DNA of 64,000 nt from a bacterium (GTDB taxonomy: Bacteria > Patescibacteriota > Saccharimonadia > Saccharimonadales > SZUA-47): assembly GCA_037138655.1 (NCBI GenBank), contig JBAXHY010000001.1, positions 6,221 through 70,220 of the forward strand, written 5' to 3'. How positions within the stretch are numbered: position 1 is the first letter of the stretch; each line of letters opens with the position of its first letter. Under the pieces are notes generated by a model. It had not been told where the DNA came from. It made no database searches and saw only the letters and a program-made list of their open reading frames with translations. Of this stretch, positions 867 to 60,519 are shown one piece after another. Made by a program: the position numbers and the translations under genes.

Positions 867-938
867 TAAATTCTCCTGTTTAGCTATATTCTGAATCGTT
901 TTTTAAACTAATTATTTAGCCTAAATCTTTAAAAAGAA

Positions 939-1806: not shown

Positions 1807-1892
1807 AGTGGCATCCTCCTTACAAGAACTATGTCTTGGATGTTAATTGTATTATCAAAGTACGCCTGTTTGCCTATGCTAGTCAAGGACTA

Positions 1893-2321
1893 TTATTTAT
1901 CGTCGCGGTTGCTGCGTCGTCTTGGACGTTCGTCTTCGTCTTCGTCAGTCTTTTCGTCGTCGTCGTTTGCATGTTCGCCACGTGCAGCTTGTTTAGCTGC
2001 TTTTTCTACGCGAAGAGTTTCGGCTTTTTCGATCTTTTTAAGATCAGGACGAGTAATCAAAAAACGAATAACTTCGTCAGTGATATTAAGACTGTCGTTT
2101 AGCTTTTTAACACCACTTGTAGGAAGTTCAAGCGTGTAAATTACATACACTGCATGTTCTTGCTTAGCGATTTTATAGGCCATTTTTCGGTTGCCCCAAT
2201 TGTCAACTTTAACAATCTTGCCTTCTGATGCCGAAATCTGTTTTTCGACTTTTGCTGTTGCCTTTTCTAGATCAATTTCTAGATCAGGGTGGTAAAGTAC
2301 TGCTAATTCGTACTGTTCCAT
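1893..2321 (-). CDS. rpsF: 30S ribosomal protein S6 with acidic C-terminal tail
   Basis: N-terminal MxxYExxxxLxPDL S6 signature; conserved rpsF-ssb-rpsR order. Confidence 0.85.
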   Translation of the reverse strand: MEQYELAVLYHPDLEIDLEKATAKVEKQISASEGKIVKVDNWGNRKMAYKIAKQEHAVYVIYTLELPTSGVKKLNDSLNITDEVIRFLITRPDLKKIEKAETLRVEKAAKQAARGEHANDDDEKTDEDEDERPRRRSNRDDK

Positions 2322-2538
2322 AGTGTCCTTTCGTTAAAGGTGGGAAATGAATAATATTTGATATTTGATATTTGATAGTTAAAAATTTCAACTAGCTCAT
2401 ACTAAATATTATCTATTTATCAAAACTTCCTTTGGTTTCTAACTTACGTACCTAAGAGTCGTAAGCTGAAGTTAGTTTTTAATACTTATATTATATCTGT
2501 TTTAAGAGTATTTTACAAGAATAATTCCCGGATTAACC

Positions 2539-4773: not shown

Positions 4774-4857
4774 AGAAGTTATTATACCGTGTTTATGTTT
4801 AAGTTACCTAGGAACACTATACCACAAATATGTAAATTTTACAACTACTAATTGGAC

Positions 4858-6930: not shown

Positions 6931-6957
6931 AAATGGTTCCTTAATTTTTAATATAAT

Positions 6958-7167
6958 TTAATTTCGAATTATTTTTTTGACGCCGTTTATTAGATTTCGG
7001 ATCGTCAGGTATGCGCTAACTAATGCTGCACAGTACAAGGCTATTGCACCAGAATCAATTGCCCACGAACTTAGTCCGTATGTGATTCCAGCAAAAACAA
7101 GTCCCATGACCAGCAGAACCCAAGGGTTCTGCATGGCGCTAGCGAATTGTTTATTATTTTTTGCCAT
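6958..7167 (-). CDS. Small hypothetical membrane protein
   Basis: 69 aa with two predicted TM helices; no recognisable family. Confidence 0.35.
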   Translation of the reverse strand: MAKNNKQFASAMQNPWVLLVMGLVFAGITYGLSSWAIDSGAIALYCAALVSAYLTIRNLINGVKKIIRN

Positions 7168-7480
7168 TTCCCACCTCTACGTTCAAATCTTTTAGAATAT
7201 CCAATGCCTGATTTTGACCATTATTTAACTCTAGTTTTCGAAGTTGCCATGCCGTCTGCTTTTTCATTATCCGGCGGGTAATCATTAGTGTTATCAAAAT
7301 AATAACTCCAAAACCGCCCCATCCAAACAATACGTCTTTCGATTTATCAGAATAGCTACTCATGAATATTACCACTATGGCAATAAGAAGACCGGTTATC
7401 CTGTCAATCACTATATTTCTCTTGTAAATCACTAGTCGTTCACCAGTTAAAAACTTACCCCATCTACCGTAAACTGCCAT
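7154..7480 (-). CDS. Hypothetical membrane protein
   Basis: 108 aa, hydrophobic core; lies between pnp and rnj. Confidence 0.4.
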   Translation of the reverse strand: MAVYGRWGKFLTGERLVIYKRNIVIDRITGLLIAIVVIFMSSYSDKSKDVLFGWGGFGVIILITLMITRRIMKKQTAWQLRKLELNNGQNQALDILKDLNVEVGNGKK

Positions 7481-7482
7481 TA

Positions 7483-18512: not shown

Positions 18513-19373
18513 TTAAACTTTCGGCTGCTTGGTTGTTTTTTGTTTTGTATTAACTACAGGTATATCTTTGATAGTATTTATATGCTTTTTGCCGTGTCTT
18601 AATAAGTATAAAACAAATGCAATAGTTCCACATGCAACAGCAAAACTTAGCAAATAACCGCCAAATAACTGCTGCACTGCCTTTAATACCGCATCTATTA
18701 ATCCGTTAGCTTTAACATCGGCTGAACCAGACTTTAATTTATCGGCCAATTTGGCTGGCAATAATATAATTGCACCCCAAAAGACAAAGAACCAAATACT
18801 CGTATGTAAAAATATTCTGCCGATTCTTCGTAGCTTTTGACCTTTTTCTGCAACATACCATTCTAACAATAAAAGAGCTACAAACACTACTGGACCAATA
18901 ATTTTTAATATCTTTAGCCGGTCATAAGCTTTTGGTAATTTATCTAAATTACCGTCTTTATTTAGTTCTATTGGAGTAGCAAAGTTTTTATCTATATCCG
19001 TGCCTACATCTACACCACTTGCCCTTAGTTTAGCCGGAAAGTCACTTATATCTACGACTGGTTGCGGGGTTCCAAGACGCATATACGTCGCAATATTATT
19101 AGATATTAGCTGTAATTTTTCTGCAACATAATCGGACGTTACAATTTTAGAAATTTTAGCTTTCATATCTGCTTTTTCAGCTGGGCTAGCATCTTTGGTG
19201 GCTTCTTCTGGAAGTAGTTTGGCAATCTCTACTGTTACCCCGGCATCCTTTAATGAAGGGACTAATTTACTTGGATTTAAAATTACACCGTCAATAAACC
19301 AAATATAAAATGTTGCTACCAAACTAAAGACCGCTAAAGTAATCAAAAAATGAGACAATATTTTTTTAAACAT
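18513..19373 (-). CDS. Hypothetical integral membrane protein
   Basis: Multiple predicted TM helices, no family recognised. Confidence 0.4.
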   Translation of the reverse strand: MFKKILSHFLITLAVFSLVATFYIWFIDGVILNPSKLVPSLKDAGVTVEIAKLLPEEATKDASPAEKADMKAKISKIVTSDYVAEKLQLISNNIATYMRLGTPQPVVDISDFPAKLRASGVDVGTDIDKNFATPIELNKDGNLDKLPKAYDRLKILKIIGPVVFVALLLLEWYVAEKGQKLRRIGRIFLHTSIWFFVFWGAIILLPAKLADKLKSGSADVKANGLIDAVLKAVQQLFGGYLLSFAVACGTIAFVLYLLRHGKKHINTIKDIPVVNTKQKTTKQPKV

Positions 19374-22686: not shown

Positions 22687-25455
22687 ATGGGTGGGGTAAA
22701 AACAGATACGTTAGACAGTTATAGGTTAAGTACGGCCGATTCTTTGGTTCAATATCAGTCAAAAATAGACGGATTAACAGATTCCGAGGTACAACTGCGC
22801 CAAGAAAAATTTGGTGCTAATAAATTATACTCCTCAAAAAGTGACAATTTAGCAATTCGTTTTATAAGACAATTCAAAGATTTAATGTTGCTTCTACTTT
22901 TACTTTCGGCAGCTTTTTCTTTTGCTATTAACGATAAACGAACCTGCATTATTTTATTGGCGATAGTTTTTATTAATGCTTTAATCGGATTTTCGCAGGA
23001 ATATAAGGCCGAAAAAGTAATGGAATCCCTAGAAAAGCTAATAGTTCCTTTGGCTAAGGTTAAACGAGGCGGTAAATTAGGTGAACTACCTAGTGAGATG
23101 TTGATTCCTGGTGACATTATATATATAGAAGAAGGCGACAGCGTTCCTGCCGATGCCCGCGTAATAGAAGAAAACGAACTAAGTACCAACGACTTTGCGT
23201 TAACTGGCGAATCAAATCCTTCGCGTAAATTTCAACACGCAATAGAGGCTCCTGTGCCACTTTCGGACAGACACAACTTAGTATACATGGGAACAACCGT
23301 AGCGACCGGTGACGCTACCTGTTTGGTTATAGCAACTGGGGCAAATACCGAACTTGGAAGAATAGCCAGCTTAAGCAGTGGCACAAAATCCGACCCCTCA
23401 CCTTTGCAAAAAGAAATGACAATACTTGCTACTACTATAACTAAATATACCCTTGGTTTAAGCGCAATACTTGCAGCTATTGCTTGGCAAGCAGACTTTG
23501 GATTACGAGATTCGTTTATTTTTGCTATAGGTATATCTAGTGCAATGATACCCCAGGGCTTGCCTGCCGAAGTCAACACAGCACTTGCAAGCGCCGCGGG
23601 TAGGTTAGCTAAAGATCGTGCCTTAGTTAAAAAATTAAGTGCCGTAGAAACTTTAGGTGCTACAAGTGTTATTTTAACCGACAAAACCGGTACGCTTACT
23701 AAAAACGAAATGACCGTACAACAACTAATTATAGGTAAAACTGTATATAACGTCAGTGGTATTGGTTACGAAAATAACGGTAAAATAAATTCAGATAAAA
23801 ACATCGCCTTAAATAATACCGAACTACAAAACCTTAAAGACTTTTTTGTAACTGGAGCTTTTGCAAGTAACGCCAAGATTCACGAACCTGACGACACTCA
23901 CGATACCTGGTACTGCCTGGGCGACCCGACCGAAGGTGCGTTAATAACTTTAGCCAAAAAGTCTGGCATAATCATAGAACAAATAGAAAAAAGTCATAAA
24001 GAATTACGAGAACATCCATTTGATTCAGCAAGAAAAAGAATGTCCTCAATTAGGTTTTATGATGGAAACTTAACGGCATTCATGAAGGGTGCGCCTGAAC
24101 AAATACTAAAAGTATGTACCCATTATTGGGACGGTAAGTCAGTCCGAAAATTAACAGTACACGATATTCAAGATATTACCGCCCGAAACGATTTATGGGC
24201 CAGCGCCGCAATGCGTAACTTAGCCTTTGCAAAAAGAATATTTCCTGAAGACACAAAGCTAGAAAATTTAGACCTAGAAACTACAGAAAAAAATATGATT
24301 TTTATGGGCCTTGTAAGTATGATCGATCCACCCCGCGAGGAAGTACCAGAAGCCATGAAAGCAGCGCGGGCTGCAAATATACCAGTTAGTATAATAACTG
24401 GCGATAACGCTCTAACAGCCCGTGCAATAGCTGTTAGAGCAGGTTTGGCAGCTAATCCTAGCGAGCTAAAACTTATAGAAGGCGACAACCTACCAAACAT
24501 GAGCGACCAATCTGTTTTGGCGCTCATTGCTAATGGACAAGCAATATTTAGTAGAGTCGCTCCAGAAGATAAATTACGTATAGTAGAAATTGCAAAAAAA
24601 GCAGGTTTAATTGTGGCCGTAACTGGTGATGGAATTAATGACGCGCCAGCACTTAAAAGAGCTGACATTGGTGTAGCTATGGGAAAAACTGGAACAGATG
24701 TAGCCAAACAATCAGCCGATATTATTTTGTTGGATGATAGTTTTAACACGTTAGTAAATGCAGTACAAACAGGAAGAGTTATTTTTCAGAATATTAGAAA
24801 AGCCGCACTAAGCGCAATCACCAGTAATGGTGGCGAATTATTTGTTGTTTTGATTAGTTTAATTGCAAAAACTAAGTTTGGAATACCAATTGCTATTGGA
24901 GCTGTTCAAATTTTAGCAATCGATTTAATTGCAGAACTGTTCCCTATCGCTGCACTTGGCTGGGACCCCGCAGAAGGCGACTTAATGCACGAAAATCCGC
25001 GTAATTTAAATGATCATATATTAAACAAATCAAACCTATGGGACCTTGCCTGGAGCGGCGCGCTTATGGGCTCTTTTGGATACTTAAACTACATTTTATA
25101 TTTTGTACGTAACGATTTATCGCCTGCTCACTTTAGCAAGGCTACAGTAGCTTACGCTACAGCCACAACGCTTACCTACACTACTATTTGCTTGTGCCAA
25201 TTTGGTAGCATTTTTATACGTCGAATAAAGCCTGGACACAAATTACTAACTAGTTATTTATGGTCAAACAAAAAATTATTTATAGCTTTTGGAATATCTA
25301 TAACACTAATGATGTCGCTAATTTACTTACCGTTCATTCAGCCATATTTTGGTACCTATAACCTTGCATTGGGTGACTGGTTTTATGCAATATTAGCAGC
25401 TGTTTTATTTGTAACAATAAGACAAGGTGTGTTCAGACTAAAAAAACAATCCTAG
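22687..25455 (+). CDS. P-type cation-transporting ATPase (type II, Ca2+/Mg2+-like)
   Basis: DKTGTLT phosphorylation motif, TGDGINDAPALKRADIGVAMG hinge, PQGLPA in M4, 10 TM topology. Confidence 0.88.
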   Translation: MGGVKTDTLDSYRLSTADSLVQYQSKIDGLTDSEVQLRQEKFGANKLYSSKSDNLAIRFIRQFKDLMLLLLLLSAAFSFAINDKRTCIILLAIVFINALIGFSQEYKAEKVMESLEKLIVPLAKVKRGGKLGELPSEMLIPGDIIYIEEGDSVPADARVIEENELSTNDFALTGESNPSRKFQHAIEAPVPLSDRHNLVYMGTTVATGDATCLVIATGANTELGRIASLSSGTKSDPSPLQKEMTILATTITKYTLGLSAILAAIAWQADFGLRDSFIFAIGISSAMIPQGLPAEVNTALASAAGRLAKDRALVKKLSAVETLGATSVILTDKTGTLTKNEMTVQQLIIGKTVYNVSGIGYENNGKINSDKNIALNNTELQNLKDFFVTGAFASNAKIHEPDDTHDTWYCLGDPTEGALITLAKKSGIIIEQIEKSHKELREHPFDSARKRMSSIRFYDGNLTAFMKGAPEQILKVCTHYWDGKSVRKLTVHDIQDITARNDLWASAAMRNLAFAKRIFPEDTKLENLDLETTEKNMIFMGLVSMIDPPREEVPEAMKAARAANIPVSIITGDNALTARAIAVRAGLAANPSELKLIEGDNLPNMSDQSVLALIANGQAIFSRVAPEDKLRIVEIAKKAGLIVAVTGDGINDAPALKRADIGVAMGKTGTDVAKQSADIILLDDSFNTLVNAVQTGRVIFQNIRKAALSAITSNGGELFVVLISLIAKTKFGIPIAIGAVQILAIDLIAELFPIAALGWDPAEGDLMHENPRNLNDHILNKSNLWDLAWSGALMGSFGYLNYILYFVRNDLSPAHFSKATVAYATATTLTYTTICLCQFGSIFIRRIKPGHKLLTSYLWSNKKLFIAFGISITLMMSLIYLPFIQPYFGTYNLALGDWFYAILAAVLFVTIRQGVFRLKKQS

Positions 25456-26300
25456 TTTTTCTTAGACAAAATGCTGCGCTCAACTACGGTTCTAACAACT
25501 TGTCTTTTTTGGGGTTTAACCTTTTTTTCGAACACTATCAATGGGTCATTTTTAATTTGTAATGCCGTCCAATTATAGGAATCAACTGCCGTATGAAGCG
25601 GAACGGCTATTTTTTTAGGTATATAAATAAAGCCCTTATTGGCATCTGTTTGCCACTGCGCATATCTTAATAACTGGGCGTGCACAAAGTCAGCAAACAT
25701 CTTTGGTTTTGCCCTTGCTTCTTCTTCTGATAAGTTTTTTAGTCCGTAAACTTTAATATCATTAACAGGAAAATAACATCGCCCCATTTCGCTGTCGTCG
25801 GTAAGATCCCTTAAAAAATTAATATACTGCATAGCTCTGCCCTGCATTCGTACTGGTTCTAGCGCTTCTTCTGGAAGATTTAATATGCGTGCTACAAAAA
25901 GCCCAACAACTTCTGCCGTTCCGTATACGTATTCTAGGGTGTCTTTTAATGAGCGGTACTGGTGTTTTTGAATATCCCATCTCATACTTTTTAAAAACGC
26001 GTCTACCCATGCAGGATCACAACCGTGACGATGAACAATGTAAGCAATATTCGATAACGCTTTTTCACTTACAGAATCGTCTAATGGTGAAGTCACAAAA
26101 CCGTTTGCAAGTTCTGATTTTATCGTTGTCCATCTAACTTCGATATATTCAAATTTAGCTAAATTACTAGGTGTTTGGTCTACAAAATTATGTACTAAAT
26201 TTATAAATGAATACAACTTAAATACGTCATCACGCATTCCTTTAGGAAAAAATCTACTACTCCAGTAGTAAGTTAACCTTCCGTTTTTAAATATATTCAT
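25452..26300 (-). CDS. Squalene/phytoene synthase family protein (trans-isoprenyl diphosphate head-to-head condensing enzyme; CrtB/HpnD-like)
   Basis: Motifs YVYGTAEVVG (YxxxxAxxVG), GRAMQYINFLRDLTDD (GxAxQxxNIxRD), GRCYFP (GRxYLP). Confidence 0.7.
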   Translation of the reverse strand: MNIFKNGRLTYYWSSRFFPKGMRDDVFKLYSFINLVHNFVDQTPSNLAKFEYIEVRWTTIKSELANGFVTSPLDDSVSEKALSNIAYIVHRHGCDPAWVDAFLKSMRWDIQKHQYRSLKDTLEYVYGTAEVVGLFVARILNLPEEALEPVRMQGRAMQYINFLRDLTDDSEMGRCYFPVNDIKVYGLKNLSEEEARAKPKMFADFVHAQLLRYAQWQTDANKGFIYIPKKIAVPLHTAVDSYNWTALQIKNDPLIVFEKKVKPQKRQVVRTVVERSILSKKN

Positions 26301-26351
26301 GTTTATAGTATGACAAAAAAAGTGTTCGTATACTGCAGTAAAAACTACAAA

Positions 26352-27440
26352 CTACTTACTTCTTCCTAGTAAACTAGTTACAAGCAGATCTAAAAATTCT
26401 ATGCCACCCTCAGAAAAAACTCCAATACAACCTTTTAATGATTCTTTTGCCTTTGAAACATGTTCAATAGCCTTAGTCTGGGCAAAGTTTAACGCGCCTG
26501 TTTCTGTAAAAATTTCTTTACATCTAATAAATTCAATATACGTAAGTTTTTCGTTACCTAACATTTGAATCAAAAAGTTTTTGTCGCCGCTGTCGGACCT
26601 ATTCAAGGCTTCTACGGCAAGTACAGTCCGCTTGCCTTCACGAATATCATCCATAGGGCTCTTACCTGCTTCTTGCTCGCTAGCAAAAGTTCCTAATATG
26701 TCATCTGTAATCTGAAAAGCTCTACCTGCGTGCATCGAATACTCATGTACAGATTCAATAGTTTTTTTACTTGCACCAGCCAATGTCATGCCAAATTGCA
26801 GTGGGTTTAAAAAGGTGTACTGTGCGGTCTTCCATTCTAATACTTGATCCACAGCTCGCTCACTAACTTCGTCTACAACCTCATTAAATATGTCGTTTAT
26901 TTGTCCGTGACCCGTAACAATTATTGCATCGTTTAGTAACGACAGTGCCCTTAATTTAAGGTGTGCATCTGTATTTAATGAAGCAATCAGACCCTGCGCA
27001 TAATGAGAACCTATAAGTGCAGCATTTATAGCAATAGACTCACCAAAATGACCAGAATCGCCTGCTAACTGATTTTGCTTATGATAGTTTTCTAGCAATA
27101 CATGGGCGGACGGACCACCCCGGCGAATTTTGGACTTATCCATAATGTCATCTAATACCAAAATATAGGCGTGCGTCATTTCGATTGCACTTGCCGCTTG
27201 AAGTATTATTTTTTTATTACTTCCACCGCACATTTCGTAGCCAACAATCGTTAAAGCACCTCGTATGCGCTTGCCACCTCTTGCCAGAACCTGAGTATAG
27301 GCGTCTACACCTACTGCCGAATATTCGGTAAATTTTTGTACTGTCTGTTCTTTTAAATTTTTGCTATGAAAAATAATTTCATCGTCGATTTCATTTTTAT
27401 AATTTATTAATCTGGATGTATGTTCGCTTAACTTACTCAT
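26352..27440 (-). CDS. Polyprenyl diphosphate synthase (GGPP-synthase-like trans-prenyltransferase)
   Basis: FARM LVLDDIMDKSKIRRG, second Asp-rich motif FQITDDILG, GKxxGxDIREGKRT. Confidence 0.8.
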   Translation of the reverse strand: MSKLSEHTSRLINYKNEIDDEIIFHSKNLKEQTVQKFTEYSAVGVDAYTQVLARGGKRIRGALTIVGYEMCGGSNKKIILQAASAIEMTHAYILVLDDIMDKSKIRRGGPSAHVLLENYHKQNQLAGDSGHFGESIAINAALIGSHYAQGLIASLNTDAHLKLRALSLLNDAIIVTGHGQINDIFNEVVDEVSERAVDQVLEWKTAQYTFLNPLQFGMTLAGASKKTIESVHEYSMHAGRAFQITDDILGTFASEQEAGKSPMDDIREGKRTVLAVEALNRSDSGDKNFLIQMLGNEKLTYIEFIRCKEIFTETGALNFAQTKAIEHVSKAKESLKGCIGVFSEGGIEFLDLLVTSLLGRSK

Positions 27441-41592: not shown

Positions 41593-41765
41593 ATTAGTTC
41601 TATTCTATCTTATTAACTCAAAAACATACACGTCCAACTTCTTAAAGACAATAATATTGACTTACTTGGCTGCGGGATTTTACATAAAACTTACCTCTGT
41701 TTTAATGGTATACTTGGCTAATGGACAGATTACTAAATAAAATTGGTAGCACTGTAAGGGGCTGG

Positions 41766-42350
41766 ATGATTATTCCGGCAAAAGTATTAAATAGTCTATC
41801 TGGTGGACTCATAAAACCTAACCACATTACACTTGTTTCGTTACTTGGTCATATTTTAGTAATTTGGGCACTTTGGTACAGTCGACCTATATTAGCAGCT
41901 GTTTTATTGGCATTTTTTGGACTTATGGACAGCCTTGATGGTGCGTTAGCAAGATTGCAAAAAACAGCCTCGTTAAATGGAATGCTATACGACGCATCCA
42001 GCGATAGAGCTAAAGAAGTTCTTATATATGTAGGGCTAACTCAGTACGTTTTTGTTCATACAAACGACTTCATTTGGTTACCTGCGGCAGTTTTAGGTGG
42101 ATCGCTTGTTGTTAGTTACATAAAAGCCAAGGGTGAAATGGCACTTGCTAGTGTTAAAAAACACGATAAACAAATGCTTAACAAAATTTTTGCAGATGGA
42201 ATAGCCAGATACGAAGTCAGAATGGCAATTGTTGTTTTTGGCTTACTGGCTGGGCAAATAATTTTATCGCTATGGTTGTTGCTGGTACTTGTTGGATACA
42301 CTGCCCTGCAAAGAATTGTTCGCATATCTAGGGCTTTAAATAATGTATAA
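41766..42350 (+). CDS. CDP-alcohol phosphatidyltransferase family protein
   Basis: Signature DSLDGALARLQKTASLNGMLYDASSDR (D-x2-DG-x2-AR-...-G-x3-D-x3-D). Start moved to ATG 41766 (RBS AAGGGG), because the upstream ATG 41721 overlaps the -10 box. Confidence 0.8.
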   Translation: MIIPAKVLNSLSGGLIKPNHITLVSLLGHILVIWALWYSRPILAAVLLAFFGLMDSLDGALARLQKTASLNGMLYDASSDRAKEVLIYVGLTQYVFVHTNDFIWLPAAVLGGSLVVSYIKAKGEMALASVKKHDKQMLNKIFADGIARYEVRMAIVVFGLLAGQIILSLWLLLVLVGYTALQRIVRISRALNNV

Positions 42351-42996
42351 GGTCGACCTTCATACTCATTCTGTTGCTTCACCAGACGGAGGAATATCAC
42401 CAGAACAATATGCAAAAATATTAGAATCCGAAAAACTAGATTATATTGCAATCACCGACCACGACAGAATAGATTTTGCTTTAGGACTACAAAAAGCTCT
42501 TGGTGACCGTATTATCGTTGGGCAAGAAATAACTACTTCAGAAGGAGAGCTAATCGGTCTTTTTTTAAAAAGTCGCATTACTCCTAATTTATCTGCCCTA
42601 GAAACAGCGCATGCCATAAAAGATCAAGGTGGCTTAGTATACGTACCTCACCCGTTCGAGATTGTCCGAAAAGGCATTCAAATAGACAACCTCCAAAAAA
42701 TTACCGAACTTGTTGATATTATCGAAATTCATAATGGTCGAGCCCTTAATAACAAGCACTCATTAAAAGCAGCAACATGGGCAAAACTAAACAACAAATC
42801 TGGTGCATCAAGCAGCGACGCTCATGGATATAAAGGCTTGGGTTATAGCTACAGCGTCCTTAAAGAAGTCCCGGCAAGAGGCTCATTGGTTAGTAGCCTT
42901 AATATGACCGCATTGGCTCACAGACGCGCACCAGTCACTACATTTTTGTACCCCAAACTTAACCGCTTAGGCAAAAAAATAGGGATTAAAAAATAA
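42343..42996 (+). CDS. PHP-domain (polymerase/histidinol phosphatase-like) metal-dependent phosphoesterase
   Basis: N-terminal DLHTHS...AITDHD PHP motifs; overlaps the upstream gene by 8 nt and the downstream gene by the ATGA arrangement. Confidence 0.75.
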   Translation: MYKVDLHTHSVASPDGGISPEQYAKILESEKLDYIAITDHDRIDFALGLQKALGDRIIVGQEITTSEGELIGLFLKSRITPNLSALETAHAIKDQGGLVYVPHPFEIVRKGIQIDNLQKITELVDIIEIHNGRALNNKHSLKAATWAKLNNKSGASSSDAHGYKGLGYSYSVLKEVPARGSLVSSLNMTALAHRRAPVTTFLYPKLNRLGKKIGIKK

Positions 42997-43553
42997 TGTT
43001 AAATCATTTATTGTTTGGACTTTGGTATTTTTTACCTGCTGGTTTTGCTAATGCGGCTCCTGTTTTTGCTAAAAAAATTCCCCTGTTAAATAAGCTTGAT
43101 ATGCCAATTGATTGTCATAAATCTTTTAAAGGAAAACGTATTTTTGGTGACCATAAAACTGTAAGAGGTTTTGTTGCGGGCACACTAATAGGATCTGTCA
43201 CCGGACTGTTGCAATACGTTGCCTACTTTCATTTTGGATGGTTTCAGAATTTTAGTTTAGTTATATACACAAGTGTCTGGCAATGCCTTTTATTGGGCGC
43301 TCTGCTTGGTTTTGGTGCATTATTTGGCGATGCAGTTAAAAGCTTTTTTAAAAGACAATTTTCTGTTCCTTCCGGAAAAGCTTGGTTTCCTTTTGACCAA
43401 ATAGACTACATTATTGGGGGCTTACTGTTTGGTTCTATATTAATAGACTTGCCTCATTCAGAATACATCTGGATTGTACTGGTTTGGTTTTTAATACACC
43501 CATTGGCAACATTTATAGGATGGCTAATGGGATTAAAAGACTCGCCAATTTAA
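42996..43553 (+). CDS. CDP-archaeol synthase (CarS, DUF46)-like CTP:lipid-phosphate cytidylyltransferase
   Basis: 185 aa, 5 predicted TM helices. N-terminal FLPAGFANAAPV...FGDHKTVRGF and C-terminal GDAVKSFFKRQ...FDQIDYIIGG match my recollection of archaeal CarS signatures, but no database comparison could be run. The bacterial CdsA C-terminal PGHGG/DRxDS signature is absent. Confidence 0.6.
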   Translation: MLNHLLFGLWYFLPAGFANAAPVFAKKIPLLNKLDMPIDCHKSFKGKRIFGDHKTVRGFVAGTLIGSVTGLLQYVAYFHFGWFQNFSLVIYTSVWQCLLLGALLGFGALFGDAVKSFFKRQFSVPSGKAWFPFDQIDYIIGGLLFGSILIDLPHSEYIWIVLVWFLIHPLATFIGWLMGLKDSPI

Positions 43554-43554
43554 A

Positions 43555-44223
43555 CTAATATTTGTAAATAAATTGCGGGTAATCTTCGAGCTTTTCTAGC
43601 TTAACTTTATATGCAGCTAGTTGTTGGTTTAACGAAAATTCGTTTCCTGATGTTAGACCGTAAGTTATAAAAGGCTCAAGTACGTTAAATCCACAATATG
43701 CTAAAGTCCCGTGTAATAACGGGTATAACATTTGTTGGACTGTCGCCCTGTGTACGCCGCCGCTTTGATAATATTTTTCTTCGTCACCTACCGTTACAGT
43801 TACTCCGGCAATTTTTCCTCTGTAAAGTCCTGTGCTAAACATATGGTTAGCGTCCCATGCTGTTCCTTTTGTAAGAACGCGGTCAAACCAACCTTTTAAG
43901 ATTGCAGGTGGTGCATTCCACCAAAGTGGAAAATGAAACAAAATAACGTCTGCTGCTTGTACTTTTTGAATTTCGTCTACGATGTCTGGAGAATAAGCCA
44001 AATCTTGCTTAGAAGCAGCTTCTTGTTCGTTAAGGTAGTTATAATGTTTACCTGTAAGAGTTCTAAAATCGTATTTTTCGGCAACAGGGTTAAAACCTAC
44101 TCCGTGCAAATCCGATACAACTACGTTATGACCGGCAAGACTTAAAACTTCTTGGGCGACATTATTAAGAGCAGCTGTATACGAAGTCGGTTCTATATGT
44201 GCGTAAACCAGCAAAATGTTCAT
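43555..44223 (-). CDS. NAD(P)H dehydrogenase (quinone)/flavodoxin-like fold protein
   Basis: Flavodoxin_2-like N-terminus (MNILLVYAHxEP..S); start moved to 44223. Confidence 0.65.
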   Translation of the reverse strand: MNILLVYAHIEPTSYTAALNNVAQEVLSLAGHNVVVSDLHGVGFNPVAEKYDFRTLTGKHYNYLNEQEAASKQDLAYSPDIVDEIQKVQAADVILFHFPLWWNAPPAILKGWFDRVLTKGTAWDANHMFSTGLYRGKIAGVTVTVGDEEKYYQSGGVHRATVQQMLYPLLHGTLAYCGFNVLEPFITYGLTSGNEFSLNQQLAAYKVKLEKLEDYPQFIYKY

Positions 44224-44271
44224 GCTTACTATTATATATCTATTTGCCCAGATTAGTTCATAAACGAACAA

Positions 44272-45670: not shown

Positions 45671-46138
45671 ATGGCTAATAAAGTTCGAATAATAGTAGTT
45701 GGTAAAGCGCATGATAAATTGTTCCTTGCAGCTATATCAGAATACGAAAAACGCATAAACCCGTATTTAAAAATACAGTGGTTAATAATACCTCCCAAAA
45801 CTGAAGCAACAATCGTCCAAACTGTTACCTCCGAAAGTAATTATATTCTTGCAAACTTAAAGGAAGCTGAATATGTATTTTTGCTAGACGAACACGGCAC
45901 ACAAATGACTTCAACCGAATTTAGTGCATCGCTTACGTCTGCACTGTCGGTAAGTAAGGATGTTGCATTTGTTATAGGCGGAGCTTACGGGGTTTCCGAA
46001 ACATTAAAAAATCGAGCAAACAAAATTGTTTCTTTTGGCAAGATGGTAATGCCGCATCAGTTAATGCGCCTTGTGCTTGCAGAACAACTGTACAGATCCA
46101 TTAGCATACAAAATGGAACTGGCTATCATCACGATTAA
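45671..46138 (+). CDS. rlmH: 23S rRNA (pseudouridine1915-N3)-methyltransferase RlmH (SPOUT)
   Basis: 155 aa, SPOUT knot region (VIGGAYG), start at MANKVRII. Confidence 0.75.
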   Translation: MANKVRIIVVGKAHDKLFLAAISEYEKRINPYLKIQWLIIPPKTEATIVQTVTSESNYILANLKEAEYVFLLDEHGTQMTSTEFSASLTSALSVSKDVAFVIGGAYGVSETLKNRANKIVSFGKMVMPHQLMRLVLAEQLYRSISIQNGTGYHHD

Positions 46139-46776
46139 AGATTTTGAACTGTATCAAATAACTTATATGGACTGTCTATCAAAACAGTTGGTGGAGACTT
46201 TTTAAAGCCGTCTGGCCCTGCTACGCCCCAAGAAACTCCTATAACATCTATATCGGCCTTTTTACAAGCAACCGTGTCCCTTGTCTCGTCGCCAACGTAT
46301 ACGACCCCTCTTTTATCTAGAGCAAATTTTTTAATTATTCTTTTTAAGGCTTTATCTTTTCCGAATAAAGTTTTTTCAGAAATAATAAAATCGAACAAAG
46401 GATATTGGTGTGTTTCTAAAAATTCACGCACTAAGTGTTCTTGATTACTAGTTAAAACCCCTAGCCTGTAACCTTTTGCTTTTAAGTTTTCTAGTGCTTC
46501 GATGATTCCGTCGTATGGTTTAACTTCGGACATATGCGAACGCATTTCTTTGCTTATCGTCAAAACCATCGCTGGTAGTCTAGACAGCCTGATGTTTTTT
46601 AACTTCATAGCTTTGGTGTATCCAAGATCTCTTACTGCTTGGCGAAGGCCTGGTAATTCTGACTCTTCGACTGTATCTGCTCCAAACTGTTCGGCGTATT
46701 GATTATACAATCGCACAGCCAGACCTATGCTGTCTGCCAGTGTACCGTCAAAATCAAAAATTACGACTTGTTTCAT
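46135..46776 (-). CDS. HAD-superfamily phosphatase
   Basis: VVIFDFDGTLADS motif I; start moved to 46776. Confidence 0.7.
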   Translation of the reverse strand: MKQVVIFDFDGTLADSIGLAVRLYNQYAEQFGADTVEESELPGLRQAVRDLGYTKAMKLKNIRLSRLPAMVLTISKEMRSHMSEVKPYDGIIEALENLKAKGYRLGVLTSNQEHLVREFLETHQYPLFDFIISEKTLFGKDKALKRIIKKFALDKRGVVYVGDETRDTVACKKADIDVIGVSWGVAGPDGFKKSPPTVLIDSPYKLFDTVQNL

Positions 46777-46831
46777 TTGATATTTATTATACAGCAAATT
46801 TTTTATACATTTACGGTCAAGTATAGTAAAA

Positions 46832-47557
46832 CTACTCTGCTTTTTTGAAGGCTTCTGTTCCTGCAGTGATTGGCATAACAAAACTAAACTTTTTTAACAT
46901 AGTTTCTGTTTGTGAAGGCATTGCTCTAAGTGCATTAATTTTAATGTCATACAGTTCATCTTTTAAACAAAAACAAATATCGCAATCGGTATCTTTATAA
47001 ATTTGAGGCTGATCAATGTTAAAAAACACGTTAAGTTCTTTGTCTGCTACTAGTATGCTTTTATACTGTTCTTCTGTTTGGATCGCATGATAAATTGTAG
47101 CGCTTTTTAAGGCTCTTTTATTGGCCAATCCAGCCCATTCAGAAACAGTTTTATGGTCTAAATGCCCTGTCATTCCGTCGGGCCCAAAGGTCAAAATCGT
47201 ATCTGGACTATAGTCGTTAATAAGTTTCGTAATCTTATCTACTGCACTATTTAAATCTACGTCAACGCAGCACCCATCAGAATAATCAAGCCAATGGTGG
47301 TCGTCGATTCCTAATATTTTTCTTACTTCATTAAGTTCTTCTTCTCTTATTCCGGCAAGCATGTTGGCGGGCCATCTGGATTCATCTTGTACGCCAGCTT
47401 CGCCTTTTGTGGCAGTTATAAAAACTACTTTTTGGCCATTTTGTATTGCCGCAGCCATTATTCCACCAGAAGAATAAGTTTCATCATCTGGGTGAGCCCA
47501 TATGCCCATAATTGTGCCCAGTGTAGCAATATCTTCGATTGTAGTTATAGACTTCAT
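46832..47557 (-). CDS. PIG-L/LmbE family N-acetylglucosaminyl deacetylase
   Basis: AHPDDE motif near the N-terminus, zinc-dependent deacetylase fold length. Confidence 0.7.
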   Translation of the reverse strand: MKSITTIEDIATLGTIMGIWAHPDDETYSSGGIMAAAIQNGQKVVFITATKGEAGVQDESRWPANMLAGIREEELNEVRKILGIDDHHWLDYSDGCCVDVDLNSAVDKITKLINDYSPDTILTFGPDGMTGHLDHKTVSEWAGLANKRALKSATIYHAIQTEEQYKSILVADKELNVFFNIDQPQIYKDTDCDICFCLKDELYDIKINALRAMPSQTETMLKKFSFVMPITAGTEAFKKAE

Positions 47558-52276: not shown

Positions 52277-53317
52277 TTAGGATACGAATCGTAAAAGGCC
52301 CAACCTGCGCAACAGGCTATCGAGTCTTGCAATAGCTCCATCATCGCCCTTATAGGCGCCTATTACGTCTGCTACCATTCGTTCAAATCCCTTACTGTCG
52401 CTGGTATTGTCAATAGCCATAGTAACTACAGTAAAATCATATCTGTCGGCAGACTCAGCTGCCCCAGAACCGCATTTTACCTGCACGCGAGTTACTGCAT
52501 CGCCCCTGTTAATAACAACATCGTGGGCTACTCTAGTGCCAATATTAGGTGGCATTCCTGCTCGAGGCTTGTCTTCGCGTTCATTAGCAAGACGAACAAA
52601 ATTATTAGAATCTTCGCCTTCGTTTTGCCAAAGTTTAAATTGTGCACTTGCCATAACGGCAAATTCAAACAATTTTCCGTCACCTACTCCGTCATCTTTT
52701 TGTTCGCCAGGAAGAGGACGTTTTTTGCGTTGCTCTATTACTCGCTCTAAAGCCTTTACTCTCCACGACTCCTCACTATCAGCTACCCTGGTACGTTCGC
52801 CTGTTCTTGTTTGAGAAATTTTAACTAGTTGTACGCCCCTTCTAGAGAGCTCGTCCTTAGTTGTACTAATTCCCATAAAAGCATCTACTTTTTGAGCTCG
52901 TGTGCTTAATGGATCATTACAAACTGAACTTTGTAACGACAGTACGAAACGCAATAAACTGTTGCTATATTCATATTCCACAACTTGTTCAGGGCTTGCT
53001 CCCAAAGCAAGAACAATGTCGGACATCATCGATACAGCCTCTAGCTTTTCGCTAGGATTAGCTACAATACCAGCCATACTAACAAGGTTAGCGTTTAACC
53101 TAGCAGACAACTCACCTGCTGTTTCGCCTAGCTTAGGTTCTAGTAATGTAGTTGCCGCAAGGTTAAGTAAAGGCGCTGCGTCTTCAGGATTAAGTTCATA
53201 ACAGGGTCCCATTCGGTGATATTCTGCCGCGGCTTGTTCGCGACTCATTAGTTGCACAGCCTCAGGTTGTGCTTCTTGAATAATTTCTAGTGGACTTGGT
53301 TGAATCGTATCTGTCAT
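52277..53317 (-). CDS. Hypothetical protein, locally GC-rich
   Basis: 346 aa ORF whose composition is visibly more G+C rich than its neighbours; no family recognised. Confidence 0.4.
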   Translation of the reverse strand: MTDTIQPSPLEIIQEAQPEAVQLMSREQAAAEYHRMGPCYELNPEDAAPLLNLAATTLLEPKLGETAGELSARLNANLVSMAGIVANPSEKLEAVSMMSDIVLALGASPEQVVEYEYSNSLLRFVLSLQSSVCNDPLSTRAQKVDAFMGISTTKDELSRRGVQLVKISQTRTGERTRVADSEESWRVKALERVIEQRKKRPLPGEQKDDGVGDGKLFEFAVMASAQFKLWQNEGEDSNNFVRLANEREDKPRAGMPPNIGTRVAHDVVINRGDAVTRVQVKCGSGAAESADRYDFTVVTMAIDNTSDSKGFERMVADVIGAYKGDDGAIARLDSLLRRLGLLRFVS

Positions 53318-59511: not shown

Positions 59512-60369
59512 TTATCTAGTCCTAAAAATAAATCTTCTTGCTTGTTCTTTAACAATTTTAGCTATGCCTTCAGTGTCGTCAACGTGCATACCTAAGTATT
59601 TATTTTGTAATTCTTCTTGGCTTAAACCTTGCAATTCTGCATCGTCAATTTGTGTAAATTCTACAGAATCGGCTTTTTGTTCTGGAATATTAGTCTGCTC
59701 GGGCTTAACTACCGGTGGATATGTTCCGTAACTTTCCTCATTATCTTTAGTGTCTGTAATTTTTGGTTTTTCTGGTTCAGCGCTTTTGGCAATATCTTCT
59801 GTTACTGGAGTTGGTTCGGGTACTAGCATTTCGACTAATTTTTTACCCAAATTTGCTATTGGTTCTTTAAACGACACAACTTCTGGTTGTTTATTTAAGA
59901 TGTTAAGCTGAAGTTGTGCGTGTTGGCTTTTAGCAAATTTTTGAAAATCTGACAATAGCTTAACAACGTCAGAACCGCTTTGTTTTGCAGCGTATTTTTC
60001 TGAATCACGAACTGTCTGTACTAAGTTTGTCCAATTAGACTCGTCGCCCGATGATACTTTTTTAGACATTTCGTCATAAAGTTCTTCGATGCTTACCAAT
60101 GGCTTACCTTCGGCATTTAAATATTCTCTTACTTTTCTTTGTTTTGCAGATTTTGGAGGCTCTAGTATTGGTTCTTTAGTAGTTAGGTCTTTGGCATCTT
60201 CTGGCTTTACAGAAACTATATCGTTCGCCTTGTCAGAAAGCGTATGGTCTGGCAAAAGCAAGTGTTCGGCTGGTACACCTAATTCAACTAACATAGTGTC
60301 TAGTTGTTCTGGCGTTGCAGTCATTGCGTCTAATGTTTGTGTTGCTGGAACTGATTCGTTGTTCATATT
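59512..60369 (-). CDS. Hypothetical acidic protein
   Basis: Start moved to ATG 60369 (RBS AGGA); Glu/Pro/Lys-rich and likely disordered. Confidence 0.4.
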   Translation of the reverse strand, partial: NMNNESVPATQTLDAMTATPEQLDTMLVELGVPAEHLLLPDHTLSDKANDIVSVKPEDAKDLTTKEPILEPPKSAKQRKVREYLNAEGKPLVSIEELYDEMSKKVSSGDESNWTNLVQTVRDSEKYAAKQSGSDVVKLLSDFQKFAKSQHAQLQLNILNKQPEVVSFKEPIANLGKKLVEMLVPEPTPVTEDIAKSAEPEKPKITDTKDNEESYGTYPPVVKPEQTNIPEQKADSVEFTQIDDAELQGLSQEELQNKYLGMHVDDTEGIAKIVKEQARRFIFRTR

Positions 60370-60519
60370 TTTGTCCTGTTTATTTTTGCTTAAAAACTTA
60401 TTTATTTTATGTTTTAATAGGCTTATAATAGCAAAATACTTATGTTTTGTCAATATGTACTGAAGCTACTTTGTAGTTTACACAAATGAGTTTTTTACAA
60501 TATTTGGTAAACTAATACA

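What the first reader, a model, noticed from the sequence alone, without database searches (positions are those of the whole stretch)
41700..43553. Archaeal-type CDP-archaeol-synthase (CarS)-like gene in a tight bacterial operon with a CDP-alcohol phosphatidyltransferase and a PHP phosphatase
Three translationally coupled genes lie behind a TGgTATACT extended -10 (41707-41715), with overlaps of 8 nt and ATGA. Gene 1 carries the D-x2-DG-x2-AR...G-x3-D-x3-D signature of CDP-alcohol phosphatidyltransferases (PgsA/PssA, or archaetidylinositol-phosphate/archaetidylserine synthases). Gene 2 is a PHP phosphoesterase, a plausible phospholipid-phosphate phosphatase. Gene 3 is a 185-aa, 5-TM protein. 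Its N-terminal (FLPAGFANAAPV...FGDHKTVRGF) and C-terminal (GDAVKSFFKRQ...FDQIDYIIGG) blocks match, from memory, the DUF46/CarS family that makes CDP-archaeol in Archaea. It lacks the length and the C-terminal signature of bacterial CdsA. Every other gene in the window is unambiguously bacterial (sigma-70, DnaG, SSB with DDIPF tail, PolA, FtsK). A CarS-type enzyme in a cell-wall-bearing bacterium with a reduced genome would either be the missing CDP-diacylglycerol synthase of this lineage or a hint of ether/isoprenoid lipid head-group activation. Together the three genes would form a complete activate, transfer and dephosphorylate head-group module of a kind not described for such bacteria.
Basis: partly seen in the sequence, partly recalled or inferred. 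Interest (0 to 1): 0.85.

Follow-up and report, generated by a model that had tools for sequence, protein, structure and literature searches.

The report
Archaeal-type lipid head-group cassette in Saccharibacteria
A reduced-genome Saccharibacteria (CPR) bacterium carries a tightly packed three-gene cassette built around an archaeal-type CarS enzyme, and comparison with relatives suggests it turns scavenged lipid into phosphatidylinositol, which gives a testable handle on how these lipid-auxotrophic bacteria build membranes.

Summary
Three overlapping + strand genes (41721-42350, 42343-42996, 42996-43553) encode a CDP-alcohol phosphatidyltransferase, a PHP phosphoesterase and a 185-aa, 5-helix CarS-family protein.

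- **Source:** a freshwater Ca. Saccharimonas MAG. NCBI already names the protein "CDP-archaeol synthase".
- **Distribution:** the subfamily is widespread in CPR and separates cleanly from the sampled archaeal CarS.
- **Conservation:** of 65 related loci with enough flank, 59 keep the transferase and 57 the PHP gene next to CarS.
- **Added neighbours:** Levybacteria-type loci add a DAG-kinase-family lipid kinase and inositol-3-phosphate synthase. Transferase-CarS and PAP2-CarS fusion proteins exist.
- **Gene 1:** it belongs to the inositol-phosphate (PIPS/AIPS) branch and keeps both phosphate-binding arginines.

Best reading: PA to CDP-DAG (CarS-like), to PI-phosphate (gene 1), to PI (PHP), working on scavenged diacyl lipid. 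The ether-lipid reading is disfavoured but not excluded. All functions are inferred. I could not check whether the genome lacks CdsA. I rate this a new variant of a known kind, of moderate to high interest.

The parts
41706..41714 (+). TGGTATACT, an extended -10-like motif 6 nt upstream of the g1 ATG. It is a possible promoter of a leaderless or near-leaderless transcript. Unverified.
   Evidence: Read directly. It is not listed by the consensus scan, which found no excess of promoter-like sites.
41721..42350 (+). g1: integral-membrane CDP-alcohol phosphotransferase of the inositol-phosphate-using branch (AIPS/PIPS-like). Proposed reaction: CDP-DAG + myo-inositol-1-phosphate gives phosphatidylinositol phosphate + CMP.
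   Evidence: PF01066 at 42 bits. Best NCBIfam models are archaetidylinositol-P synthase at 90 bits and PIP synthase at 63 bits; pgsA scores 19. The family profile against PDB gives M. tuberculosis PgsA1 at 103 bits, E 1e-28, full length. Invariant R167 and R198 align with Mtb R155 and R195, the residues shown to bind the inositol-phosphate phosphate (PMC4634129).
42343..42996 (+). g2: soluble PHP-family metal-dependent phosphoesterase with a basic amphipathic C-terminal helix. Proposed role: phosphatidylinositol-phosphate (lipid head-group) phosphatase.
   Evidence: PF02811 at 30 bits and PHP_C at 19 bits. AF2 model pLDDT is 95. Foldseek hits are PHP phosphoesterases 3e38, 2anu, RNase AM and Cv1693. 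Invariant residues include H7 H9 D15 H40 E62 H103 D159 H161. Residues 200-217 have the highest hydrophobic moment in the protein and a net charge of +6. The gene is adjacent to CarS in 57 of 65 assessable loci.
42996..43553 (+). g3: CarS-family 5-helix membrane cytidylyltransferase of a CPR-specific subfamily. Proposed reaction: CTP + phosphatidate gives CDP-diacylglycerol + PPi, a functional analogue of CdsA.

Best explanation
The three genes are a conserved Patescibacteria (CPR) phospholipid head-group cassette.

- **Step 1, inferred.** The CarS-family membrane enzyme (g3) uses CTP to activate phosphatidate to CDP-diacylglycerol. It does the job that CdsA does in other bacteria. The phosphatidate comes from scavenged lipid. 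In relatives, a DAG-kinase-family lipid kinase encoded in the same cluster would supply it from diacylglycerol.
- **Step 2, inferred, with good sequence support.** The AIPS/PIPS-type CDP-alcohol phosphotransferase (g1) transfers the phosphatidyl group to myo-inositol-1-phosphate, giving phosphatidylinositol phosphate.
- **Step 3, inferred from context only.** The soluble PHP phosphoesterase (g2), docked to the membrane by its basic amphipathic C-terminal helix, removes the terminal phosphate to give phosphatidylinositol.

Shown here: the family and fold memberships, conservation of catalytic and substrate-binding residues, the conserved gene order, and the fusions. Not shown: any enzymatic activity, the nature of the lipid tails, the source of inositol phosphate in this genome, and the absence of CdsA.
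For: **CarS identity.**
- Pfam 113 bits, full length.
- The only significant Foldseek PDB hit is 5GUF.
- Catalytic-core residues are shared with archaeal CarS: P14 N19 P37 D39 R48 G51 K54 T55 G58 D112 K119 R120 D134 Q135 D137 H168.

**Conserved linkage.** Of 65 CPR loci with at least 2.5 kb of upstream sequence, 59 have the CDP-OH transferase, 57 have PHP and 55 have both within 3 kb of CarS. Junctions overlap. CarS identity across these loci falls as low as 43%.

**Pathway-completing neighbours.**
- Levybacteria-type loci read MIPS(+) CDP-OH(-) PHP(+) DAGK_cat kinase(+) CarS(+).
- The kinase scores PF00781 at 63 bits, the YegS/BmrU lipid kinase model at 99 bits, and hits PDB DgkB and DAG kinases.
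- MIPS scores PF01658 at 76-118 bits and TIGR03450 at 471 bits.
- A second DAGK_cat type flanks the cassette in Saccharibacteria-like loci.

**Fusion proteins.** Three separate 50%-identity clusters fuse CDP-OH_P_transf to CarS. One fuses a PAP2-like phosphatase (DUF212) to CarS.

**g1 specificity.** The profile hits mycobacterial PIPS at 103 bits, RsPIPS at 90, AF2299 at 73 and DIPPS at 66, against PSS at 30. R167 and R198 align with the two inositol-phosphate-binding arginines (PMC4634129).

**Contrast with archaea.** Archaeal CarS genes sit among mevalonate-pathway genes, without a transferase or PHP.

**Literature.**
- CPR lack complete lipid synthesis yet have fatty-acid-based membranes (PMC7242380).
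- The PIPS pathway needs a phosphatase. It was unidentified in 2015. In Bacteroides it is a PgpA-like enzyme encoded in-cluster with PIPS and MIPS (PMC9246714).
Against: - No activity data exist for any bacterial CarS-family protein that I could find.
- Purified archaeal AfCarS strongly prefers DGGGP over phosphatidate and cannot complement an E. coli cdsA mutant (PMC9385802). A diacyl substrate therefore requires a specificity shift that is only suggested by CPR-specific substitutions and inserts.
- The window has no MIPS and no DAG-kinase homologue, so the inositol-phosphate and PA sources in this genome are unknown.
- g1 and g3 score below NCBIfam equivalog cut-offs: 90 against 180, and 132 against 148.
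- The PHP fold does not reveal a substrate. The nearest structures are uncharacterised phosphoesterases, RNase AM and a pAp phosphatase.
- Some loci have CDP-OH, CarS and MIPS without PHP.
- A canonical CdsA may exist elsewhere in the genome.
Confidence: 0.6

Rival explanations
1. Genuinely archaeal-type chemistry. The CarS-like enzyme makes CDP-archaeol, or another CDP-activated isoprenoid ether lipid, and g1 makes archaetidylinositol phosphate. The bacterium would carry or remodel ether/isoprenoid lipids, self-made or taken from archaeal neighbours.
For: - Both membrane enzymes score best against archaeal models. CarS PRK04032 gives 132 bits. The AIPS model gives 90 bits for g1 and 153 bits for the Levybacteria-type transferase, against 63 and 96 for bacterial PIPS.
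- Archaeal CarS discriminates against PA.
- The window encodes a short-chain (GGPP/FPP-type) prenyl diphosphate synthase and a squalene/phytoene-synthase-family enzyme at 25452-27440.
Against: - No G1P dehydrogenase, GGGP synthase or UbiA-type DGGGP synthase was found in the window ORFs scanned against Pfam or recognised among the recurrent gene clusters of the 80 loci.
- The in-cluster kinases are of the bacterial DAG-kinase/YegS family.
- Archaeal CarS genes sit with mevalonate genes, and the CPR ones never do in the sample.
- CPR lipidomes are reported as fatty-acid based.
- The CPR clade differs from archaeal CarS at conserved positions (R57 for E, WFPF for APLL) and carries two inserts.
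Confidence: 0.08
2. The cassette makes phosphatidylglycerol. In this reading g1 is a PGP synthase using glycerol-3-phosphate and the PHP protein is the PGP phosphatase.
For: - PG is the generic bacterial anionic lipid and also needs a synthase plus a phosphatase.
- No MIPS is present in the window.
- In one Dojkabacteria locus (L013) a typical PgsA-like transferase (PF01066 at 125 bits) lies 2 kb from CarS.
Against: - g1 scores 19 bits on the pgsA model against 90 on AIPS.
- The family profile hits only inositol-phosphate enzymes strongly in the PDB.
- Both inositol-phosphate arginines are invariant.
- MIPS is encoded in or beside the cassette in 9 related loci.
Confidence: 0.12
3. The CarS and transferase steps are as in the best explanation, but the PHP protein is not the terminal lipid phosphatase. 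It could be a phospholipase-C-like phosphodiesterase or PA phosphatase that generates DAG from scavenged phospholipid. It could instead clear a reaction by-product such as PPi or a nucleotide.
For: - In Levybacteria-type loci the gene order PHP, DAG kinase, CarS matches a route from phospholipid to DAG to PA to CDP-DAG.
- From general knowledge, PHP enzymes include phosphodiesterases and nucleotide phosphatases. The nearest structures are RNase AM and a 3',5'-bisphosphate nucleotidase.
- Several loci with transferase, CarS and MIPS lack PHP.
Against: - The PIPS route always needs a phosphatase, and in Bacteroides it is encoded in-cluster.
- A PAP2-type lipid-phosphate phosphatase is fused to CarS in another lineage.
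- In Saccharibacteria the PHP gene is translationally coupled between the transferase and CarS without any kinase.
Confidence: 0.2

Closest known systems
Archaeal CDP-archaeol synthase CarS (A. pernix 5GUF; A. fulgidus AfCarS)
   Different: - Only 27-38% identical to archaeal CarS.
- It belongs to a separate CPR clade (50/50 bootstraps).
- It has inserts at residues 25-30 and 82-96.
- It has R57 for E and W130-F-P-F133 for A-P-L-L.
- It scores below the NCBIfam equivalog cut-off.
- Its neighbours are the PIPS-like transferase, PHP, DAG kinase and MIPS, whereas archaeal CarS sits with mevalonate genes.
- The likely substrate is diacyl phosphatidate rather than DGGGP. This is inferred.
Bacterial CDP-diacylglycerol synthase CdsA (T. 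maritima 4Q2E; PF01148)
   Different: 185 aa and 5 helices, against about 260-290 aa and 9 helices. There is no full-length PF01148 match. It is not a CdsA family member.
Bacterial PI pathway via PIP: mycobacterial PgsA1/PIPS, and the Bacteroides BT_1523 (PIPS), BT_1525 (PgpA-like PIP phosphatase), BT_1526 (MIPS) cluster
   Same: g1 aligns over its full length with Mtb PgsA1 (103 bits) and keeps the CDP-AP signature and both inositol-phosphate arginines. The logic of a synthase plus in-cluster phosphatase plus MIPS (in relatives) matches the Bacteroides cluster.
   Different: The phosphatase candidate is a PHP-fold protein, not PgpA-like. The CDP-DAG supplier is CarS-type and encoded in the cluster. 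g1 is closer to archaeal AIPS models than to bacterial PIPS models.
Archaeal archaetidylinositol phosphate synthase (AIPS) pathway
   Same: It is the best-scoring NCBIfam model for g1 and for the Levybacteria-type homologue (90 and 153 bits). It uses the same acceptor, inositol-1-phosphate.
   Different: Scores are below the equivalog cut-off of 180. The donor lipid is probably CDP-DAG. The host is bacterial.
Soluble bacterial DAG kinases and lipid kinases (DgkB, YegS, BmrU). Relevant to relatives only.
   Same: The kinases inserted between PHP and CarS in Levybacteria-type loci match DAGK_cat and YegS_C, and PDB DgkB, YegS and BmrU.
   Different: No homologue lies in this window. Their lipid substrate is untested.

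Membership tests
CarS-like / CDP-archaeol synthase (Pfam PF01864) | Full-length match to the family HMM above the gathering score | tested here: met
   113 bits against a cut-off of 22, covering residues 1-184 on profile positions 1-174 of 175.
CarS-like / CDP-archaeol synthase (Pfam PF01864) | Five-transmembrane-helix fold of ApCarS with a cytoplasmic polar cavity | tested here: met
CarS-like / CDP-archaeol synthase (Pfam PF01864) | Conserved polar and catalytic-core residues shared with archaeal CarS | tested here: met
   29 positions are at least 85% identical in both the CPR and archaeal sets, including D39, R48, K54, T55, D112, K119, R120, D134, Q135, D137 and H168. I could not map them to published mutagenesis because Ren et al. 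2017 is not held.
CDP-2,3-bis-(O-geranylgeranyl)-sn-glycerol synthase, exact function (NCBIfam equivalog PRK04032) | Score at or above the curated equivalog cut-off | tested here: not met
   132.4 bits against a cut-off of 148.
CDP-2,3-bis-(O-geranylgeranyl)-sn-glycerol synthase, exact function (NCBIfam equivalog PRK04032) | Genomic co-occurrence with the isoprenoid ether-lipid pathway (G1PDH, GGGPS, DGGGPS, mevalonate genes) | tested here: not met
   None was found in the window ORFs scanned against Pfam or recognised among recurrent neighbours in 80 loci. Archaeal CarS loci do have mevalonate genes.
CDP-2,3-bis-(O-geranylgeranyl)-sn-glycerol synthase, exact function (NCBIfam equivalog PRK04032) | Converts DGGGP + CTP to CDP-archaeol | not testable with these tools
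   This needs an enzyme assay.
CdsA / phosphatidate cytidylyltransferase (Pfam PF01148) | Full-length HMM match and a roughly 9-TM, 260-290 aa architecture | tested here: not met
Inositol-phosphate-using CDP-alcohol phosphotransferases (PIPS/AIPS) | CDP-AP signature DxxDGxxAR...GxxxDxxxD and P(D/N)xx(T/S) | tested here: met
   D70, D73, G74, A77, R78, G87, D91, D95, P33 and T37 are invariant or nearly invariant in 20-64 homologues. The motif definition is from PMC4634129.
Inositol-phosphate-using CDP-alcohol phosphotransferases (PIPS/AIPS) | Two arginines that bind the phosphate of inositol phosphate (Mtb R155 and R195) | tested here: met
   Invariant R167 aligns with R155 in ERPER, and R198 with R195 in VQRL, in the profile alignment to 6h53.
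Inositol-phosphate-using CDP-alcohol phosphotransferases (PIPS/AIPS) | Score at or above NCBIfam equivalog cut-offs (AIPS 180, PIPS 170) | tested here: not met
   90 and 63 bits for g1. 153 and 96 bits for the Levybacteria-type homologue.
Inositol-phosphate-using CDP-alcohol phosphotransferases (PIPS/AIPS) | A source of myo-inositol-1-phosphate (MIPS) in the same organism | tested here: inconclusive
   There is no MIPS in this 64-kb window. MIPS is encoded in or next to the cassette in 9 related loci.
PgsA (PGP synthase, TIGR00560) | Score at or above the equivalog cut-off | tested here: not met
   19 bits against a cut-off of 109.
PHP-family metal-dependent phosphoesterase (Pfam PF02811) | HMM match above gathering and the PHP barrel fold | tested here: met
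   29.9 bits against 26.4. The model has pLDDT 95. Foldseek E-values of 1e-11 to 1e-8 to PHP phosphoesterases 3e38, 2anu, 7ug9 and 9etk.
PHP-family metal-dependent phosphoesterase (Pfam PF02811) | Conserved His/Asp/Glu metal ligands (HxH at strand 1, and so on) | tested here: met
   H7, H9, D15, H40, E62, H103, D159 and H161 are invariant in 45 homologues. Assigning them as metal ligands rests on general knowledge of the PHP family, not on a structural superposition done here.
Lipid head-group (PIP/PGP) phosphatase | Hydrolyses the terminal phosphate of PIP or PGP | not testable with these tools
   Only context supports it, together with a predicted basic amphipathic C-terminal helix. It is unrelated to the known PgpA, PgpB, PgpC and BT_1525 types.

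The most novel reading that the evidence does not exclude
The CarS-like and AIPS-like pair really handles archaeal-type (isoprenoid, possibly ether-linked) lipid. On this reading, Saccharibacteria and other CPR activate archaeol-like lipid phosphates, taken from archaeal neighbours or built from their own GGPP, and make archaetidylinositol-type lipids. They would be natural bacteria with archaeal head-group chemistry in their membranes. The evidence disfavours this reading but does not exclude it, because no substrate was tested and the rest of the genome was not seen.
Probability: 0.07. Interest if true: 0.9.

Novelty: new variant of a known kind. Interest (0 to 1): 0.6.

Why it matters
CPR/Patescibacteria are reported to lack complete lipid synthesis, and the origin of their membrane lipids "remains elusive" (PMC7242380). 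This cassette points to a concrete and widely conserved step that they do encode: re-activating scavenged diacylglycerol or phosphatidate and attaching their own head group, probably inositol.

If that is right, three things follow.

1. An enzyme family treated in the literature I read as the archaeal counterpart of CdsA would be the working CDP-DAG synthase of a large bacterial radiation. That bears on arguments about the "lipid divide".
2. A PHP-fold protein would be a new, non-homologous type of PIP phosphatase. That step was long unassigned in bacteria and is known so far only as a PgpA-like enzyme in Bacteroides.
3. Epibiotic Saccharibacteria would have an autonomous lipid-remodelling step that can be tested by genetics, complementation and lipidomics.

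It also warns that the database name "CDP-archaeol synthase" on thousands of bacterial proteins is probably a functional over-annotation.

Tried and rejected
- **Literature.** Ten full-text searches found no paper that describes CarS-family genes in CPR or a PHP-type PIP phosphatase.
  - The two papers holding both "CDP-archaeol synthase" and "Patescibacteria" mention them in unrelated contexts.
  - Coleman 2019 does not treat CarS.
  - The Cell 2023 Saccharibacteria genetics paper says nothing on lipids.
  - Kantor 2013 says only that lipid pathways are incomplete.
  - The ApCarS structure paper (Ren 2017) is not held, so catalytic residues could not be matched to mutagenesis data.
- **CdsA membership.** Considered and rejected.
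- **Recent horizontal transfer.** Considered and rejected. GC content is uniform. The neighbourhood is syntenic across Saccharibacteria, with ArgRS upstream in 26 loci. The CPR clade is clean and its internal divergence (0.82) is as large as that of the sampled archaea (0.88).
- **PHP substrate from structure.** Sequence search of the PDB gave only marginal hits. The fold search gave generic PHP enzymes. No substrate inference is possible.
- **Promoter and terminator scan.** Nothing above chance.
- **Lipid genes in the window.** All ORFs of 100 aa or more not overlapped by a longer annotated gene were screened. There is no cdsA, plsX/Y/C, MIPS, DAG kinase, G1PDH, GGGPS or UbiA. Only a prenyl diphosphate synthase and an SQS/PSY gene were found.
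- **The 314-320-aa protein in the kinase slot** in four loci has no Pfam, NCBIfam or PDB sequence match.
- **Soluble CDP-inositol/DIP-type product.** Considered and set aside, because CarS is a lipid-groove membrane enzyme.


Full report
**1. What is in the sequence**

- g1, 41721-42350, 209 aa
- g2, 42343-42996, 217 aa
- g3, 42996-43553, 185 aa

g1 and g2 overlap by 8 nt (ATGTATAA). The TGGTATACT motif is real but lies at 41706-41714, one base off. It is 6 nt before the ATG and has no -35. The consensus scan finds no more promoter-like sites than in shuffles, so I treat the promoter as unverified. The cassette is bounded by a divergent ArgRS gene upstream. Downstream, a convergent flavodoxin-fold gene has its stop 1 nt after the g3 stop.

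The rest of the window is ordinary bacterial housekeeping with uniform GC.

**2. Family assignments**

g3:
- It matches Pfam CarS-like over its whole length (113 bits, E 2e-32). It matches CdsA only locally (35 bits, residues 53-124).
- The NCBIfam CDP-archaeol-synthase equivalog gives 132 bits, just under its cut-off of 148.
- The only PDB sequence hit is A. pernix CarS 5GUF, E 9e-12, end to end.
- An AlphaFold model (pLDDT 94, five long helices) has 5GUF as its only significant Foldseek hit, with TM-scores of 0.71/0.82.

g1:
- It is a CDP-alcohol phosphotransferase (PF01066, 42 bits).
- Its best NCBIfam models are archaetidylinositol-phosphate synthase (90 bits) and PIP synthase (63 bits). 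pgsA gives 19 and pssA 14.

g2:
- It is a PHP phosphoesterase (PF02811 at 30 bits, PHP_C at 19 bits).
- Its confident model (pLDDT 95) resembles uncharacterised PHP phosphoesterases, RNase AM and a 3',5'-bisphosphate nucleotidase.
- The fold confirms a metal-dependent phosphoesterase but says nothing about the substrate.

**3. Whose genes these are**

The exact proteins are consecutive NCBI entries MEI7631737-39 from a MAG. They are named "CDP-alcohol phosphatidyltransferase family protein", "PHP domain-containing protein" and "CDP-archaeol synthase". A 99%-identical locus belongs to an uncultured Candidatus Saccharimonas MAG.

The other 79 best loci are almost all Saccharibacteria, Levy-, Roizman- and Dojkabacteria or unclassified Patescibacteria. 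A few bins carry other phylum labels. The family is large:
- 3331 homologues in the 90%-clustered collection.
- 1648 clusters at 50% identity with E of 0.001 or less, 857 with E of 1e-10 or less, and 100 with E of 1e-30 or less.

**4. Relation to archaeal CarS**

I recovered archaeal CarS sequences by searching with the ApCarS sequence. CPR and archaeal proteins are 27-38% identical. They share 29 positions that are at least 85% conserved in both sets, including D39, R48, K54-T55, D112, K119-R120, D134-Q135, D137 and H168.

The CPR proteins differ in these ways:
- inserts at residues 25-30 and 82-96
- R57, where archaea have E
- W130-F-P-F133, where archaea have A-P-L-L

In a neighbour-joining tree of 71 CPR and 55 archaeal sequences, the two groups are separated by a single split in 50 of 50 bootstraps. 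Within-group divergence is similar, 0.82 and 0.88. This argues for an old, vertically kept CPR subfamily and against a recent transfer. The caveat is that the archaeal sample is biased towards relatives of A. pernix and the tree has no outgroup.

**5. The cassette is conserved and extended in relatives**

I clustered the ORFs of all 80 loci. Of 65 loci with at least 2.5 kb upstream of CarS:
- 59 have the g1-type transferase within 3 kb
- 57 have PHP
- 55 have both
- 15 have a DAGK_cat lipid kinase

Junctions are nearly always overlaps or gaps of 4 nt or less.

Levybacteria-type loci read LysR(-), MIPS(+), CDP-OH(-), PHP(+), lipid kinase(+), CarS(+).
- The kinase scores PF00781 at 63 bits plus YegS_C, and the YegS/BmrU lipid kinase model at 99 bits. 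It hits PDB DAG kinases, BmrU, YegS and DgkB.
- MIPS scores PF01658 at 76-118 bits and TIGR03450 at 471 bits.

Two Saccharibacteria-like loci read CDP-OH, CarS, MIPS. A second DAGK_cat type flanks the cassette in five loci.

Archaeal CarS genes sit instead among mevalonate-pathway genes (AcnX, UbiD, GHMP kinases), with no transferase or PHP.

Among 50%-identity representatives there are fusions:
- Three separate clusters are single polypeptides with an N-terminal CDP-OH transferase and a C-terminal CarS.
- One cluster fuses a PAP2-like phosphatase (DUF212) to CarS.
- All four carry the bacterial-type insert and an xFPFDQ-like motif.

**6. Which head group**

A profile of the g1 family hits the following in the PDB:

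| Target | Bits |
|---|---|
| M. tuberculosis PgsA1 (PIP synthase), full length, E 1e-28 | 103 |
| R. salmoninarum PIPS | 90 |
| AF2299 | 73 |
| IPCT-DIPPS | 66 |
| Choline/ethanolamine phosphotransferases | 26-41 |
| PS synthases | 30 |

In that alignment, the invariant g1 residues R167 and R198 fall on Mtb R155 (ERPER) and R195 (VQRL). These are the two arginines shown by mutagenesis to bind the phosphate of inositol phosphate, and they are conserved in all PIP synthases (PMC4634129). Together with the MIPS neighbours, this favours inositol-1-phosphate as the acceptor. The window itself has no MIPS or DAG-kinase homologue, so for this genome the supply is unknown.

**7. Mechanism proposed**

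- **Step 1.** Scavenged DAG or PA is converted by the CarS-like enzyme, using CTP, to CDP-DAG. In relatives a kinase would first convert DAG to PA.
- **Step 2.** g1 combines CDP-DAG with inositol-1-P to give PIP.
- **Step 3.** PHP dephosphorylates PIP to PI.

Steps 1 and 2 rest on family membership, conserved residues, synteny and fusions. The diacyl nature of the lipid rests on the bacterial-type DAG kinases, on the absence of ether-lipid genes in everything I could see, and on published CPR lipidomes (PMC7242380).

The PHP role rests on four points:
- its position in the cassette
- the universal need of the PIPS route for a phosphatase, which was unidentified in 2015 and is a PgpA-like in-cluster enzyme in Bacteroides
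- the PAP2-CarS fusion
- a C-terminal segment, residues 200-217, with the highest hydrophobic moment in the protein and a net charge of +6, suggesting interfacial membrane binding

The main counter-evidence is that archaeal AfCarS prefers DGGGP and cannot replace E. coli CdsA (PMC9385802).

**8. Rivals**

- **Archaeal-type lipid substrate.** It is supported only by the archaeal affinity of both membrane enzymes and by a prenyl diphosphate synthase plus SQS/PSY gene pair elsewhere in the window.
- **PG synthesis.** The g1 scores and the conserved arginines argue against it.
- **A different PHP role**, such as PLC-like generation of DAG or clearance of a by-product. This remains open, because the gene order PHP, kinase, CarS in Levybacteria also fits it.

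**9. Novelty**

The gene family and its database name are known. A generic PA to CDP-DAG to PG/CL/PI route was already predicted for one soil Saccharibacterium (PMC6031116). In ten full-text searches I found no description of any of the following:
- the CDP-DAG synthase candidate in CPR being CarS-type
- its near-universal coupling to an AIPS/PIPS-like transferase and a PHP phosphoesterase
- the kinase and MIPS extensions
- the fusion proteins

I therefore rate it a new variant of a known kind.

**10. Limits**

No activity was tested. The rest of the genome, and CdsA in particular, could not be screened. The literature library is incomplete. The tree is distance-based with limited archaeal sampling.

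Noticed in passing
window 25452-27440 (- strand): A short-chain prenyl diphosphate synthase (26352-27440; PF00348 at 183 bits; GGPP-synthase model at 159 bits, below cut-off) sits directly upstream of a squalene/phytoene-synthase-family gene (25452-26300; PF00494 at 130 bits; HpnD 82, CrtB 74). This is an isoprenoid head-to-head condensation pair in a reduced CPR genome. It could make a carotenoid or squalene-like lipid, and it keeps isoprenoid chemistry on the table.
   Followed up: partly
window 46135-47557 (- strand): A HAD-family phosphatase (46135-46881) overlaps a PIG-L/LmbE-family de-N-acetylase (46832-47557; PF02585 at 105 bits; BshB2 77, MshB 63, Mca 56, all below cut-offs). The pair lies 2.6-4 kb downstream of CarS. 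PIG-L follows CarS directly in 18 of 80 related loci, and HAD is present in 11. The pairing recalls GlcNAc-inositol(-phosphate) or GlcNAc-PI processing and may link to the inositol lipid. This is untested.
   Followed up: partly
L020, L034, L053, L057, L072, L078, L079, L032 (Levybacteria-type loci), about 800-7600: The extended cluster carries a LysR regulator, MIPS, CDP-OH transferase, PHP, a DAGK_cat lipid kinase and CarS. It is followed by two tandem GH130 mannoside phosphorylases, or in L032 by a GT2 glycosyltransferase and a 674-aa membrane protein. This hints at mannosylated inositol lipids.
   Followed up: partly
L013:4067-5011, L038:4043-5005, L050:4028-4990, L069 (about 4067-4978): A conserved 314-320-aa protein occupies the slot between PHP (or an epimerase) and CarS where other lineages have the lipid kinase. 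It has no Pfam, NCBIfam or PDB sequence match. It may be an unrecognised lipid kinase.
   Followed up: partly
P0414, P0440, P0445, P0471 (representative proteins): There are natural fusion proteins. Three clusters fuse a CDP-OH transferase to CarS (330-353 aa) and one fuses a DUF212/PAP2-like phosphatase to CarS (340 aa). I could not inspect their genomic context or organism.
   Followed up: partly
window 43553-43555: The CarS gene and the convergent flavodoxin-fold/NAD(P)H-dehydrogenase-like gene (43555-44271) end 1 nt apart. There is no room for a terminator, and none was predicted.
   Followed up: no
L002:2981-3724 and 22 other loci, between ArgRS and the CDP-OH gene: A DUF1361 membrane protein (PF07099 at 110 bits) lies immediately upstream of the cassette, divergently transcribed, in 23 Saccharibacteria loci. 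It is absent from that position in this window.
   Followed up: no
window 10930-12600, 52277-53317, 59512-60453, 18513-19373 (- strand): Several sizeable ORFs (556, 346, 313 and 286 aa) have no Pfam match at E of 1e-3 to 1e-4 or less. They were not examined further.
   Followed up: no
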